64,000 nucleotides of DNA from Octopus vulgaris (lineage: Eukaryota), in NCBI GenBank assembly GCA_951406725.2, contig OX597816.1, positions 25,544,001-25,608,000 of the forward strand. The letters are read 5' to 3'. The number at the start of each line of letters is the position of its first letter. Within the stretch, counting starts at the first letter, position 1. The position numbers and the translations under genes were made by a program. Of this stretch, positions 652-51,624 are shown one piece after another. The notes under the pieces were generated by a model. That model did no database searches. It had not been told where the DNA came from and saw nothing but the letters and a program-made list of their open reading frames with translations.

Positions 652-762
652 CGATAGAACAATCCTCTCCTCTGTATCCCGGGACACATTTACATTCGAA
701 CTTATCTCCCTTGTTTGTACAGTTACCTTCATTCTTACATGGATTGCTACTGCATGGATCAA
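652..762 (-). CDS. EGF exon 13, type A (DPCSSNPCKNEGNCTNKGDKFECKCVPGYRGEDCSI); gene continues beyond window start
   Basis: 111 nt, cag/gttggt, six Cys, no stop. Confidence 0.92.
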
Positions 763-1584
763 CTGAAAGAGGAAAATAATTACATAGAATATCTGTAACC
801 CTATTTAAAACAAAGGAAAACACTCATTTATTTAACTTAATTGTTCAAATTTCAATTTCGAAGAATTTAAGTCTCAACAAATTTTGGCTTTTTTTCTTAC
901 TTCCGACGCTTGAAATTTAAACTAACAAAATGTCAAAGTATTCCAGCCGTCGTTGACAATAATAAAGAAAAAGGCTGGTGCATAAAAAAAGGGCTAAAAG
1001 TTCTTCCACAGACCTAGGCTCATAAGTACAGTTTTGCAGAGTCTGTGTCATATATATTATCTGCTGGAAGGGACGCTGATCCATAACAGGATTACTCATT
1101 TTGTCGTCGGAGTGAACGAGAGCCACTTGAAGTGAATTGCTTAACTCAAACACACAACAGATGACCTGGGCCAGAATCGACGTACTGTGGCGGCGTATAT
1201 ATACTAGTCCCTACATCACTGTTTGATAGGAAGGTGGTTCGGCGAAAGGTTACTTATTTTTGCCAACTGAGTGGATTGGAGTAACATGAAATGAAATGTA
1301 TTCCACAAGAGCATAGCGCATAGCTCGGTCCAATAAGCCACGCGGCTTTACTCTGCGAGCTTTAGCTTCGGTACTATGGCAACTGCAGACAGTTATTGAT
1401 CAAACCATGCATGTGTGTATATATATGTATATATATATATATATATATATATATATATATATATATATATATATATATATATATATATATATATATATAT
1501 GTATGTATGTATGTATGTATGTATGTATATATGTATGTATGTATGTATGTATATATGTATACATATATATATTTATCATTCGCC

Positions 1585-1770
1585 ATGATAGATCGCTAGT
1601 TACTACACGTTCTTTATTTTCTCTCCTTGTTTCTTTCTGTGTCCCTTTCTGTGGAAGTGCGTAGGCTCGAAACGTTAAAGACTTTTTAACTTTCCGAGTG
1701 TTATGCTAATACATCTGTTTGTTGTCTACACTACCAGTCTTCGTCTTTTGTTTTTTTTGTGACTTCTCCC
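1585..1770 (+). mobile_element. Short Penelope-like pseudo-LTR repeat between (TA)n tracts; other copies at ~4195-4375, 15785-15945(-), 40985-41190(-), 46040-46222, 59040-59175
   Basis: Shared ~180 bp with ctgtNgaagagcgtagRctcgaaacgtaaaagac, a hammerhead-derived core. Confidence 0.55.
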
Positions 1771-2656
1771 TATATATATATATATATATATATATATATG
1801 TATGTGTGTGTGTGTGCGTGTGTGCGTGTCTGTGTGCGTACGTGCGTGTGTGTGTGTGTATGTGTGGGACAAGAAGGCAAAACATCCGGACAGCTAGGTG
1901 ATACAAAAAGGGACAACAAAAAATCCAGATAGACGATCCAAAGAAAACAATGACGGGTGATTCGAAGTTTTCTTTCCTCAGTCAAGCACAAAATTATCCT
2001 CGCAATTTCGGGTGATTATTCTCGACATTGCTCCAATCTGGCCAGCCCCAAGGAAAAACTAAGCTAAGAGCATTAGATTCCTTGGAAGAAAGCACCGAAT
2101 GTATACAAAAACAAGGACAGAAAAAATGGACAATGTTACACAAATATAAATGCAATAAAAAATAATAACAAGTCATAACAACAGGTGTCTTTCGACTAAG
2201 GACGAATTGAATGAAGCTGGCGCGTGTGGAAATGAAGCTTCGAATGAACCGTCTTTATTTTCTTTGTGTCGTCTATCTGGATGTTTTGTTGCTCCTTTTT
2301 GTATCACCTAGTTGTCTGGATATTCTTGTCCCATTTTGTATTATATATATATATATGTATATATATATATGTGTGTATGTGTGTGTGTGTGTATGTGTGT
2401 GTATATATATACATATATATATATATATATATATATATATATATATATATATATATATATGTATACATACACACATATATAGCGGCATACGTACACTTTG
2501 GTCTCTCTCCCTCATATATATATATATATGAGAAAGAAAGAAAGAAAGAGAGAAATAGAGATAGACAGATAGGGAGAAAAAGATAGAGAGAGAGATAGAG
2601 TGTGTGTGTGTGTGTGTGTGAGAGAGAGAGAGAGAGAGAGAGATATCAGTACCAAC

Positions 2657-2767
2657 CTATGGAACAATCATATTTTCTGTATCCCGGGAGACAATTACAT
2701 ACGTACTCCCAGCCATGGTTTTCACATTTACCTCCGTTCTGGCAAGGATTACTACTGCATGGATCAA
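2657..2767 (-). CDS. EGF exon 12, type B (DPCSSNPCQNGGKCENHGWEYVCNCLPGYRKYDCSI)
   Basis: 111 nt, cag/gttggt, six Cys. Confidence 0.9.
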   Translation of the reverse strand: MIHAVVILARTEVNVKTMAGSTYVIVSRDTENMIVP

Positions 2768-3784
2768 CTGAAATAAGGAAATGATTAAGAACAACATGTA
2801 TTTAATTAATTCAAATTCCTACCCTGAAGATTATGCATCTTCATTAATTATGGTTTGTTGCTATCTCCACCTCTTGAAATTTAAACCAACACAATGTCTA
2901 CCTGCTCCGGCCGCCTTGGGCTATATTCTCCTCTACACTTTACCATTCATTCATACCTACCCAGACACACCCAGATACACACACACACACACACACACAC
3001 ACACACACACACACACACAACACACACACACACAACACACATACGCACACGCGCACACACGCACACACAAACATATATATATACACACATACCTATACAT
3101 ATACATATATGTATATATATATATATATATATATATATATATATATATATATATATATATATTTACATACATATAAAAGGGATGACCTGTAAGTGGACAT
3201 CCGTTATGCTAGAAGTAGATCCACTATGGTCTTACCACTAAGAAAGGAATGTTCTCAAGAAAATTTAGCAAACGCCAGAACGTAAGCGATCAAGAGAAAT
3301 GAAAAGATACAGAATATAGATTAATCACAAACTATGGTTTCGTCGTTAATGCTTACGTAATCACTAACATAATTATCCGCAACTTGTCAGTGTGATCGTC
3401 TTTGCAATTATAAATTGCAGAACTATACACGGGATTTGAATTTTTCACCCTCATTATTTTAAATTTATTTATATATTTAAATTTATATTTATTTATATAT
3501 TTAGATAAACACACCTACATCTGTCAATGCGTTTTAAAAGCACATTTATAATCAATATAAATTATAAAACATATTTTTGAACCCAGAGAAAGAGAGGCTG
3601 ATACACATAAACATATGCGTGCGCATACACATGCACACACACACACACACACACACACACACGCACATACACGCACACACATACACACAAATGCACGCAC
3701 GCACACACACACACACACACACACAAACGCACGCACAAGTACAGAAACACACACCGTCATACATATGCGAATATCATTACCAAG

Positions 3785-49517: not shown

Positions 49518-50081
49518 TGTTACAAATATCTGCTGATATGTGCTCTTTAATTTCATCAAGGCCACTAAAGTTTTCTGCATAAAATACGTATTCCGAGCTT
49601 GGTTTACTAGCAATGTCTTCTAGCTCTTCTTGAACAGCATTCTCTACTCCTATAGAAAATACAGTAACACCGGCAGCTTTTAAACGTTCTGCAGTTTCCT
49701 TTGTTTTCTCTTTATCAAATGATTTTCCGTCTGTTATTAAGATTGCAATGTTTGGAGCATCTTCTCTATCCCCTTTAGCTGCTGTAAACGAATTCGTACG
49801 AAGATAATCTAATGCTTTATGTGTATTTGTCATGCCACCCTCGTAACCAACTTCCTCTATTGCGTTCTTCAATGAACTTGGATCCTGGTACGTATTTAAA
49901 TCAAATTCTTCATACACTCCAAAGCCATATTTCAGCAGGCCTACGTGAACGGAATCTGACCCGACGGGAAGATTGGTGGCAACATTTTCAACGAAGGATT
50001 TCATAGTTCCAAAGTGTTTTTGGCCAACACTACTCGATTCATCTAAAACAAACATGATGTCGGCTTTACCCTCTTTACATG
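49518..50081 (-). CDS. vWA domain 1 exon (564 nt)
   Basis: cag|..A|GTAAGT, phase 1-1; ADIMFVLDESSSV, TNTHKAL, ILITDG = intact MIDAS; flanking Cys pair. Confidence 0.95.
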
Positions 50082-50854
50082 CTGTAATAAAAGAAAGCAT
50101 AGGTGTTCATCGAAGTAAAATAAATTCTGAAATTAACTAATCAAGTACGATATAAACACGAGTGCTTTTATGCATCACGAGTCCATATAGGAGGTTCTCT
50201 CGTACCAAATAATGCAGTATTCTGTGTTTTAACACAACATAACATAACACCCACTTTAAGTGAGAAATAAATATTAGTTTTAGTATTTATATTGCTTCTG
50301 TCGCTATATATATGTGTGTGTTTGTGAGTGAGTGTCTGTGTGCGTGTATGTAGGTATATATGGATGTATGTATGTATATATGTATATGTACATATATGTA
50401 TATATAAATATATATGGGAATGTGAGTATAAGTACGTATGTATGTGTATAAATATATAAGTATATGTGTACATGTGTACATGTGTGCGTGTATATATATA
50501 TATATGAACTCTCCCTATATATACACATATATACATTATACATACATACATACATACATATATATATATATATATATATTTATATATATATATATATATA
50601 TATATATATATATGTATATATAAATATATATATATATATATATATTTATTGAAATGGATAAATGAATTATCTTGTTAAGGATTATTCAAAATTTAATCGA
50701 TCCTGGGTAGCAAAAATCACAACAGAAAAGACACGGTTGAAGTTACGACCTTGGGGTGTCTCAACCGTGTCTTAGCGCGGATAATTGAAGTTCAATATAT
50801 TTAGTGAAGGGAAGAAATGGAGCTGAACGAAGATTCTACATAATTCCTTTTATT

Positions 50855-50939
50855 ATCTTCTACACATGTTTCAAAGGCCGCAGATTTCCAAATTCGGATT
50901 GAATAAGGAGACCATTTGCAGCATTCTCTTCAGGAAAAT
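50855..50939 (-). ncRNA. Type I hammerhead motif in first coding intron, sense to host pre-mRNA
   Basis: ATTTTC-CTGAAGA-GAATGCTGCA..TGCGGCCTTT-GAAACatgtGTA-GAAGAT. Confidence 0.6.
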
Positions 50940-51548
50940 CCAGGAATTTAAAAATCCAAAACAAATGCGCAGCAAGGTAGAACAAAGCGCTCCCTAGGAG
51001 CCCATGAAAGCACAAAACTGTCTCTCACTGTACGTTGACGTCTGGGGGTGGGGGGGTGGAGGCCTTCACTTTATATATATATATATATATATATATATAT
51101 ACATGTACATACATACATACATACGAAGGGTGTTCATTAAAGATTTCCCTTGACCTACTTCCGGTTATTGCAGGAAAGGGAACTTGTGCAAGTATAATCA
51201 TACATTGTAAATTGCAGTTTTTCACTAGTATTCGTTTGTTTTTCAAGAGGGAGTCACAGAGGTAGAAAGTGATATAGAGAAGCAGAGAGAGGGAGAGAAG
51301 AGAGAGAGAGAGAGAGAGAGAGAGAGAGAGAAAGAGATCAAGATCATTAGGTCGCAGCAAGTGCACTTCGCAAACAAACAGTGAAATATAGGGTGGAGAG
51401 GAGAAGATATATCTCGTAAGAATAGTAAGGTGGGACAGTCGTATTACTGTACTATACAGAAAAAGAATTAGAGACATAACGTGATAAAGTAACCAGTGTG
51501 GAAAGAGAATGAAGTCATAATCATGTGCGAGACGAACGAAAGACTTAC

Positions 51549-51624
51549 AGTTTGATGAAGATGGCTGCAACAACTGGAGGGTCACCAACAGAAAAGAAAA
51601 CGGCGATATCATCACGAACCTCAT
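51549..51624 (-). CDS. vWA/EGF ECM protein, first coding exon: signal peptide MRFVMISPFSFLLVTLQLLQPSSSN
   Basis: ATG at 51624; hydrophobic core; ends AAC T|GTAAGT (phase 1) and joins vWA1 exon in frame (T+CA=Ser). Confidence 0.8.

What the first reader, a model, noticed from the sequence alone, without database searches (positions are those of the whole stretch)
652..51624. Large secreted vWA-EGF mosaic protein: SP-vWA-EGF7-vWA-EGF-vWA-vWA-EGF5+
Seen: 18 exons splice into one open frame (~1270 codons visible), one domain per phase 1-1 exon, with all four MIDAS motifs (DxSxS..T..D) intact. Known: matrilins have at most two vWA domains around EGF repeats, and collagen VI has vWA runs without EGF arrays. 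The EGFs here are Notch/fibropellin-type. Inference: this is a lineage-specific, exon-shuffled ECM or adhesive protein (cartilage, sucker, skin or egg-case material) with no simple vertebrate orthologue.
Basis: partly seen in the sequence, partly recalled or inferred. Interest (0 to 1): 0.7.

Follow-up and report, generated by a model that had tools for sequence, protein, structure and literature searches.

The report
Two octopus vWA-EGF genes, wrongly fused
The listed exons are real but belong to two neighbouring octopus genes rather than one giant gene; both sit in an undescribed cluster of likely secreted, mucin-related proteins that probably help cross-link skin mucus or another surface matrix.

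Summary
All 18 exons exist with AG/GT ends and four intact MIDAS motifs, but the proposed single protein is a chimera. Spliced contigs from three studies join the vWA3 donor (31060) to a stop exon at 28446; none joins it to 12975. vWA4 has its own signal-peptide exons (16110, 15403). Gene A: SP-vWA-EGF7-vWA-EGF-vWA, 903 aa, same length in O. sinensis and O. bimaculoides. Gene B continues 45 kb left of the window: SP-vWA-EGF30-VWD-C8-TIL-TILa-PAN-PAN, 1,869 aa predicted, 40 exons. Its EGF repeats are 83% alike, under purifying selection (pN/pS about 0.14), and 9 of 30 carry RGD. Both genes lie in a 550-kb cluster of about six genes of this build, with two more clusters on the same contig. Close relatives were found only in octopods. 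Peptides of two paralogs, but not of A or B, occur in a published O. vulgaris skin-mucus proteome. Neither protein is a matrilin, collagen VI, Notch, FCGBP, zonadhesin or PTS mucin. Best reading: secreted, non-covalent, metal-dependent cross-linkers of mucus or surface matrix (about 55%). The genes are already auto-annotated under misleading names; I found no description of the family.

The parts
51549..51624 (-). Gene A exon 1: ATG and signal peptide
   Evidence: matches N-terminus of O. sinensis XP_029633229.1 and O. bimaculoides A0A0L8H954
49518..50081 (-). Gene A vWA1, MIDAS intact
47284..47397 (-). Gene A EGF1
45144..45257 (-). Gene A EGF2
42981..43094 (-). Gene A EGF3
41391..41504 (-). 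Gene A EGF4
40605..40718 (-). Gene A EGF5
39355..39465 (-). Gene A EGF6 (111 nt, weak AAG acceptor; both orthologue models have the same length)
36856..36969 (-). Gene A EGF7
35218..35778 (-). Gene A vWA2, MIDAS intact
34176..34307 (-). Gene A EGF8 (132 nt)
   Evidence: junction to vWA3 seen in 4 of 4 runs
31060..31620 (-). Gene A vWA3, MIDAS intact
28424..28446 (-).
   Evidence: loose ends at 31060 in X1, X2, X3 match it; same C-terminus in two orthologue models
16080..16110 (-). Gene B exon 1: own ATG and first half of signal peptide; TATA-like motif about 60 nt upstream (16175-16167, seen by eye)
15353..15403 (-). Gene B exon 2: second half of signal peptide
   Evidence: X9 contig depth in bin 15333-15460 fits this exon (inferred)
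12409..12975 (-).
   Evidence: junction to the next EGF in X3 and X9
11168..11278 (-). Gene B EGF1 of 30
6842..6952 (-). Gene B EGF2
4979..5089 (-). Gene B EGF3
3789..3892 (-). Degenerate EGF pseudoexon (two Cys lost, in-frame deletion, altered acceptor and donor)
2657..2767 (-). Gene B EGF4
652..762 (-). Gene B EGF5. The gene continues left of the window to G000:C3:25499248 with 25 more EGF exons, VWD (2 exons), C8, TIL, TILa, PAN, PAN and stop
56887..60478 (-). TILa/EGF-PAN-PAN tail exons of the upstream paralog (gene D); this is the second copy of a duplicated tail

Best explanation
The exons belong to two tandem paralogous octopus genes, A (903 aa, SP-vWA-EGF7-vWA-EGF-vWA) and B (predicted 1,869 aa, SP-vWA-EGF30-VWD-C8-TIL-TILa-PAN-PAN), whose products are likely secreted cross-linkers of skin mucus or another surface matrix. 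SHOWN: the exons, gene A's end, separate starts in orthologue models, domain content, intact MIDAS, and cluster context. INFERRED: both are soluble (signal peptide, no hydrophobic segment later) and lack the usual covalent or coiled-coil oligomerisation parts (even Cys counts, no coiled coil, no cystine knot, no GDPH). They would therefore bind non-covalently: each vWA MIDAS would use Mg2+/Mn2+ to grip an acidic residue of a partner, as integrin I-domains do (established knowledge). A would be a trivalent linker. B would be a long tether with one vWA at one end, a rod of 30 EGFs (roughly 75-90 nm, my estimate) predicted to carry O-glucose, and a mucin-type D assembly plus two PAN binding domains at the other end. 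The family grew by tandem duplication of phase 1-1 exons, with purifying selection holding B's repeat near one sequence.
For: Two genes: 3 of 3 runs covering the donor splice to the stop exon; own signal peptide; 903-aa models in two species; A: 13 exons, 903 aa, 98.8% and 87.8% identical to orthologues over the full length; B: 40 exons, 38 of 38 internal exons AG/GT, no internal stop. Soluble: maximum 19-residue hydropathy beyond residue 40 is 0.75 (A) and 1.19 (B). Cys counts: 54 = 3x2+8x6 in A, 222 in mature B. O-glucose consensus in 29 of 30 B repeats. pS 0.25 vs pN 0.035 over 23 core repeats. Mucus link: the PSM table of PMC10138644 holds three peptides assigned to LOC115209190, one of which I matched to the VWD exons of cluster gene F, and a peptide matching the C3:89.6-89.8 Mb paralogs exactly. 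Matrilin-like vWA/EGF proteins are reported in semislug adhesive (PMC11178922, passages) and VWD/EGF proteins in limpet pedal mucus (PMC7333891, passages). The closest solved structures to vWA1 are collagen VI alpha-3 and mussel byssal PTMP1.
Against: No peptide or accession of A or B was found in the mucus table (file cut when stored, so not proof of absence) or the ink table. The tissue of the runs is hidden. No binding partner or metal dependence was tested. Even Cys counts do not exclude intermolecular disulfide exchange. B's 30-EGF model is genomic: only the vWA-to-EGF1 junction was seen in contigs, and O. sinensis isoform models carry 18, 20 and 21 EGFs. 'Matrilin-2/3'-named transcripts are in the top 20 of cuttlefish haemocytes (PMC7551771, passages), which favours the blood rival if they are relatives (not tested).
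Confidence: 0.55

Rival explanations
1. Same two genes, but A and/or B are haemolymph or haemocyte proteins that aggregate cells or microbes (clotting, encapsulation), like hemolectin or von Willebrand factor; B's RGD repeats would engage haemocyte integrins.
For: vWA plus VWD-C8-TIL is the domain set of VWF (PMC4948705, passages). Matrilin-named transcripts are abundant in cuttlefish haemocytes. 9 of 30 B repeats carry RGD against 3 of 1,284 background EGFs.
Against: The RGD copies descend from one repeat by duplication and alternate with RGE (17 of 30), so D is not fixed. They lie in the short C5-C6 loop. The two octopus immune-cell or white-body papers checked do not mention vWA or matrilin genes in the main text, and the O. 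maya zonadhesin primer tested matches none of the 56 loci then held. Paralogs are found in skin mucus.
Confidence: 0.2
2. Internal structural matrix (cartilage, connective tissue, sucker cuticle, egg case), working like matrilin or collagen VI adaptors.
For: vWA/EGF content resembles matrilins; the best PDB match is collagen VI alpha-3.
Against: No coiled coil or Gly-X-Y run. The argonaut egg-case preprint passages name no such protein among egg-case proteins (passages only). B's tail is mucin/FCGBP-type.
Confidence: 0.2
3. The first reader's single fused protein is the main product, or a regular read-through isoform.
For: The 31060 donor and 12975 acceptor are phase-compatible and give an open frame. 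O. bimaculoides RefSeq XP_014774721 joins the two genes.
Against: 3 of 3 informative runs splice to the stop exon and none to 12975. The RefSeq fusion runs through gene A's terminal exon, a non-homologous linker and gene B's second signal-peptide exon, which marks it as a prediction merge. O. sinensis models keep the genes apart. Contigs drop rare forms, so a rare read-through is not excluded.
Confidence: 0.04

Closest known systems
[quoted passage not shown]
   Same: One-to-one counterparts of gene A: 903 aa each, 98.8% and 87.8% identical over the full length.
   Different: Automatic predictions only; the name comes from domain similarity. No paper in the searched library cites these accessions.
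O. sinensis XP_036356789.1/790.1/791.1 ('Notch homolog 1' / 'fibropellin-1') and the 3' part of O. bimaculoides XP_014774721 ('zonadhesin')
   Same: Counterparts of gene B, with the same vWA-EGFn-VWD-C8-TIL-TILa-PAN-PAN order; tail 91.7% and vWA 86.2% identical to O. bimaculoides.
   Different: 18-21 EGFs in the O. sinensis isoforms seen and 26 in the gene B part of the O. bimaculoides model, against 30 here. The names are wrong: no TM segment, LNR, ankyrin, CUB, avidin or MAM.
VWD-C8-TIL superfamily: FCGBP, zonadhesin, alpha-tectorin, VWF, gel-forming mucins, hemolectin
   Same: B carries a VWD-C8-TIL-TILa unit; the best non-octopod hits of its tail are IgGFc-binding-protein-like proteins at 27-30% and lophotrochozoan VWD proteins at 31-34%. 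Cluster gene F has 11 such units, with GDPH in 4 of 5 translated.
   Different: B has one unit only, no FCGBP_N, MAM, NIDO/ZP, PTS or cystine knot, and no GDPH. It adds an N-terminal vWA, a 30-EGF rod and two terminal PAN domains.
Vertebrate matrilins and VWA2/AMACO (architectures recalled)
   Same: Secreted proteins built of vWA and EGF domains; VWA2 also has three vWA domains and no coiled coil.
   Different: A has 8 EGFs in another order and no coiled coil. Its vWA domains are closest to octopod cluster paralogs. No matrilin or VWA2 sequence was in the tree, so orthology to VWA2 is untested.
Gastropod glue and mucus proteins (matrilin-like vWA/EGF of slugs and semislugs; limpet VWD/EGF proteins) and mussel PTMP1
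   Same: Same domain vocabulary in molluscan secretions.
   Different: No sequence-level orthology tested; limpet proteins add Kazal, lectin or cystine-knot domains and lack the PAN pair.

Membership tests
   0 of 3 runs covering the donor; all 3 go to 28446
Matrilin | vWA domains flanking EGF repeats, secreted | tested here: met
   gene A
Matrilin | C-terminal coiled-coil oligomerisation domain (recalled) | tested here: not met
   only 7 residues follow vWA3; no matrilin coiled-coil family among Pfam hits of P0009
VWA2/AMACO | Orthology with vertebrate VWA2 (vWA-EGF-vWA-vWA-EGF, recalled) | not tested
   no VWA2 sequence was returned by the searches; domain order differs
Collagen VI | Gly-X-Y triple helix | tested here: not met
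   longest G-x-x run is 2 triplets in A and B; fish collagen VI and tunicate vWAs form a separate clade, support 98
Notch | TM segment, LNR and ankyrin domains | tested here: not met
   no hydrophobic segment; no such Pfam hits in P0003 or P0009
Notch-type EGF repeats | Cys spacing 4-5-8-1-8 and O-glucose consensus C1-x-S-x-P-C2 | tested here: met
   spacing in 38 of 38; O-glucose site in 29 of 30 (B) and 5 of 8 (A)
Calcium-binding EGF | N-terminal D/N-x-D/N-E/Q consensus | tested here: not met
   0 of 38, although the beta-hydroxylation consensus is in 29 of 30 B repeats
Fibropellin | CUB and avidin-like domains (recalled) | tested here: not met
   absent from the Pfam scan of P0003
VWD-C8-TIL superfamily | VWD-C8-TIL unit | tested here: met
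   gene B exons score above Pfam cut-offs for VWD, C8 and TIL; TILa only weakly, E 0.0013, below cut-off
FCGBP | N-terminal FCGBP_N domain with many VWD-C8-TIL units (PMC4948705) | tested here: not met
   no such domain in P0003; one unit only; no GDPH
Zonadhesin | MAM domains (PMC4948705) and TM anchor (recalled) | tested here: not met
Gel-forming mucin | PTS domain (Thr+Ser at least 40%) and several VWD units | tested here: not met
   maximum P+T+S is 28 per 100 residues in A and B
MIDAS-type vWA (integrin I-domain-like) | DxSxS, Thr and Asp metal ligands | tested here: met
   4 of 4 domains
MIDAS-type vWA (integrin I-domain-like) | Cation-dependent ligand binding | not testable with these tools
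   needs recombinant protein
Octopus skin-mucus proteins | Peptides in the skin-mucus proteome | tested here: inconclusive
   paralogs present; A and B not found in a file that was cut when stored; a second supplement was too large to read

The most novel reading that the evidence does not exclude
Octopods have evolved their own family of PTS-free mucus scaffolds: the mucin bottlebrush is replaced by O-glucosylated EGF rods whose length is set by exon duplication and skipping, cross-linking is by MIDAS-metal bonds instead of disulfides, and gene B's rod displays RGD on 9-13 repeats as a multivalent integrin ligand that ties the gel to cells.
Probability: 0.2. Interest if true: 0.65.

Novelty: new variant of a known kind. 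Interest (0 to 1): 0.33.

Why it matters
It removes a false giant protein, and shows that the same false merge stands in an O. bimaculoides RefSeq model. It also shows that genes named Notch, fibropellin, zonadhesin, VWA2 and matrilin in octopus annotations are one expanded family, so expression studies that read those names literally may be misled. If the mucus role holds, the cluster gives concrete candidates for how octopus skin mucus coheres. The interest is moderate: the domains are common and no function is shown for A or B.

Tried and rejected
(1) Laying contigs over the whole 12300-31700 span was not possible because of a microsatellite; the two ends were tested separately. (2) No run on record as RNA was listed; the runs used are guessed RNA, though their contigs skip introns. 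vWA4 had no cover in X1 and X2, which do hold gene A; a hole in contigs proves nothing, so this is not used. (3) My recollection that a gene called vwa2 marks octopus haemocytes was not borne out: PMC9712504 names svep1 and vegf (passages); PMC13230822, PMC6522055 and PMC12240821 have no 'vwa' or 'matrilin' in the main text. (4) One O. maya zonadhesin primer matched none of 56 loci at up to 3 mismatches. (5) Recent homogenisation or exon-only gene conversion as the cause of B's near-identical repeats is not needed: synonymous divergence is 0.25 and follows flank similarity (0.14 where a flank is over 80% alike, 0.29 where both are under 60%). (6) The vWA tree groups A, B, D, F, G, Argonauta and other octopod paralogs, but only at SH-aLRT 80 in a quick tree, and the degenerate vWA of gene C falls elsewhere on a long branch: suggestive only. 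(7) Literature searches found no description of the family or the accessions; two wanted papers (the 2015 octopus genome paper and Smith 2017 on slug glue) were not held, and most subscription papers are not searched. (8) Earlier findings of this scan: none returned. (9) No structure or complex prediction was run, as all domains have known folds and no partner is nominated.
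Full report
Observation. A six-frame scan found four vWA and twelve EGF reading frames on the minus strand inside 652-51624 by pattern, and the thirteenth intact EGF by profile or inspection. All 17 domain exons have AG/GT ends in phase 1-1, and with the signal-peptide exon at 51624 they splice to 1,270 codons without a stop. Pfam confirms the four vWA exons and the two EGF exons tested, and all four MIDAS sets are complete. The sequence observation is sound. The genome is an octopus of the O. vulgaris/O. sinensis group, judged from 98-100% protein identity of these and neighbouring genes to records so named.

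The join is wrong. The O. sinensis protein 98% identical to vWA4 begins with its own signal peptide directly before that domain, and this peptide maps to two small exons at 16110-16080 and 15403-15353. Two independent 903-aa models, from O. sinensis and O. bimaculoides, end seven residues after vWA3, at an exon found at 28446. In public contigs, 3 of 4 runs laid (three studies) cover the vWA3 donor; in all three the next 30 letters are those of the 28446 exon with its stop, and none shows vWA4. The EGF8-to-vWA3 junction is in 4 of 4 runs and the vWA4-to-EGF junction in 2 of 4. The X9 contig has 90 unplaced letters before 12975, and its depth in the bin 15333-15460 fits the 51-nt second signal exon; the table row itself was cut, so this is inferred. 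The fused frame is open only because all module exons share phase 1. The O. bimaculoides RefSeq model makes a similar merge through a linker that contains gene A's last exon and gene B's second signal exon. Contigs drop rare forms, so a rare read-through is not excluded.

Gene A. 13 exons, 903 aa, SP-vWA-EGF7-vWA-EGF-vWA, 98.8% and 87.8% identical to the two orthologue models. It has 54 Cys, exactly 2 per vWA and 6 per EGF, no hydrophobic segment after the signal peptide, and no coiled-coil or collagen family. It is best read as a monomeric trivalent vWA linker.

Gene B. 200 kb left of the window were fetched. They hold 25 more intact 111-nt EGF exons and one truncated one, then VWD (two exons), C8, TIL, TILa/EGF-like, PAN and PAN. 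The model has 40 exons, 38 of 38 internal exons with AG/GT, and 1,869 aa without an internal stop. Only the vWA-to-EGF1 junction was seen in contigs; the rest relies on splice sites and on orthologue models of the same order. The 30 repeats average 83% identity, against 48-68% in the other cluster genes. Among the 23 core repeats (exons 6-28; the 7 flanking ones were left out) pS is 0.25 and pN 0.035, and flanking introns fall into recurring types: repeated tandem duplication plus purifying selection. 29 of 30 repeats have the O-glucose and beta-hydroxylation consensus, 1 the O-fucose consensus, and none the calcium-binding N-terminal consensus. Nine carry RGD and 17 RGE in the C5-C6 loop; the O. 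bimaculoides model has 13 RGD, the O. sinensis isoforms 3, and a background of 1,284 EGFs has 3. These copies are not independent and D is not fixed, so this is a lead only. B has no GDPH and no PTS region.

Cluster. Over 624 kb, domain mapping shows about six genes between G000:C3:25.17 and 25.72 Mb. G: EGFs, two vWA, one tail. F: EGFs, vWA, eleven VWD-C8-TIL-TILa units, with GDPH in 4 of 5 translated. C: two units around a vWA with a degenerate MIDAS. Then B, A, and D (vWA, 57 EGFs, one tail). All but A end in two PAN domains. The limits of C, D, F and G rest on domain order alone. Genome searches add two genes at C3:89.6-89.85 Mb and one at C3:144.7 Mb (lower bounds). Among 27 proteins hit by B's tail, those combining vWA, EGF and VWD are all from Octopus or Argonauta. 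In the wider search, 4 of 150 listed hits align from TIL into PAN; three are octopod and one is unnamed (10 proteins were looked up by name). The quick vWA tree groups the octopod domains apart from collagen VI, with weak support at the base. Restriction to octopods is therefore tentative.

Function. In the PSM table of the O. vulgaris skin-mucus proteome (PMC10138644; supplement searched, cut when stored), three peptides are assigned to LOC115209190; one matches the VWD exons of cluster gene F as far as I translated them. Another peptide matches the 89.6-89.8 Mb paralogs exactly. Neither A nor B was found there or in the ink table (PMC10142993, supplement searched). The supplement of PMC11431876 could not be read; its main text names unspecified vWA-domain and cartilage-matrix proteins in mucus (passages). 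Passages of PMC11178922 and PMC7333891 report vWA/EGF and VWD/EGF proteins in gastropod adhesive mucus, and the closest solved structures to vWA1 are collagen VI alpha-3 and mussel PTMP1. Passages of PMC7551771 put matrilin-named transcripts among the most abundant in cuttlefish haemocytes. I commit to secreted, MIDAS-dependent, non-covalent cross-linkers of mucus or surface matrix at about 0.55, with blood (0.2) and internal matrix (0.2) as rivals. The two-gene structure itself I hold at about 0.96.

Comparison and novelty. A works like a matrilin or VWA2 adaptor but fails the coiled-coil test. B belongs to the VWD-C8-TIL superfamily (definitions from PMC4948705, passages) but fails the tests for FCGBP, zonadhesin, mucin, Notch and fibropellin. 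Both genes already exist as automatic annotations. Eight literature searches returned no description of the family; two relevant papers were not held, and unseen supplements may list these proteins. Verdict: the finding as stated is a mis-splice; what is there is an undescribed domain variant of a known kind, of moderate interest.

Noticed in passing
window 53429-61163 and G000:C3:25605264-25613043: A 7.8-kb, 98%-identical direct duplicate holding gene D's TILa-PAN-PAN tail, on either side of the 100-N gap at 61164-61263; probably an uncollapsed haplotype at a scaffold gap.
   Followed up: partly
G000:C3:25.28-25.42 Mb (L013-L020, L037-L043): Gene F: eleven tandem VWD-C8-TIL-TILa(-EGF) units, most nearly identical, with GDPH self-cleavage-type motifs; FCGBP-like and detected in skin mucus. 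Probably the most testable member of the cluster.
   Followed up: partly
G000:C3:25.60-25.72 Mb (L021-L032): Gene D: one vWA followed by 57 diverse EGF exons (51% mean identity) and the same tail.
   Followed up: partly
G000:C3:25461760-25462311 (L009): vWA exon of gene C with a degenerate MIDAS, placed between two VWD units.
   Followed up: no
window 3789-3892 and G000:C3:25535478-25535540: Two dead EGF exons inside gene B's array, one with lost cysteines and splice sites, one truncated: birth and death of exons.
   Followed up: partly
G000:C23:38.04-38.15 Mb: About 29 near-identical vWA exons at a 1.85-kb period, followed by a second array at about 3.2 kb; a much more regular vWA tandem array than the one here.
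   Followed up: no
G000:C3:144.68-144.83 Mb, C3:89.6-89.85 Mb, C4, C9, C25, C27: Further single-exon vWA clusters; 150 of 204 candidates were scored and matched. The two C3 clusters share the VWD and PAN tail.
   Followed up: partly
window 7774-8822 (+) and 25483-26203 (+): Broken Tc1/mariner-type transposase remnants (HTH_Tnp_Tc3_2 below cut-off and DDE_3; HTH only for the second).
   Followed up: partly
window 11447-11966, 19218-19799, 22326-22866, 26923-27456, 41720-42086: Arrays of a 184-187-bp repeat unit that is very abundant in the RNA contigs; likely an octopus SINE or satellite (label recalled).
   Followed up: no
G000:C3:25456178-25460377 (L009): Two copies of a reverse-transcriptase-like ORF (514 and 412 aa) across an N gap in an intron of gene C (family label by eye).
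   Followed up: no
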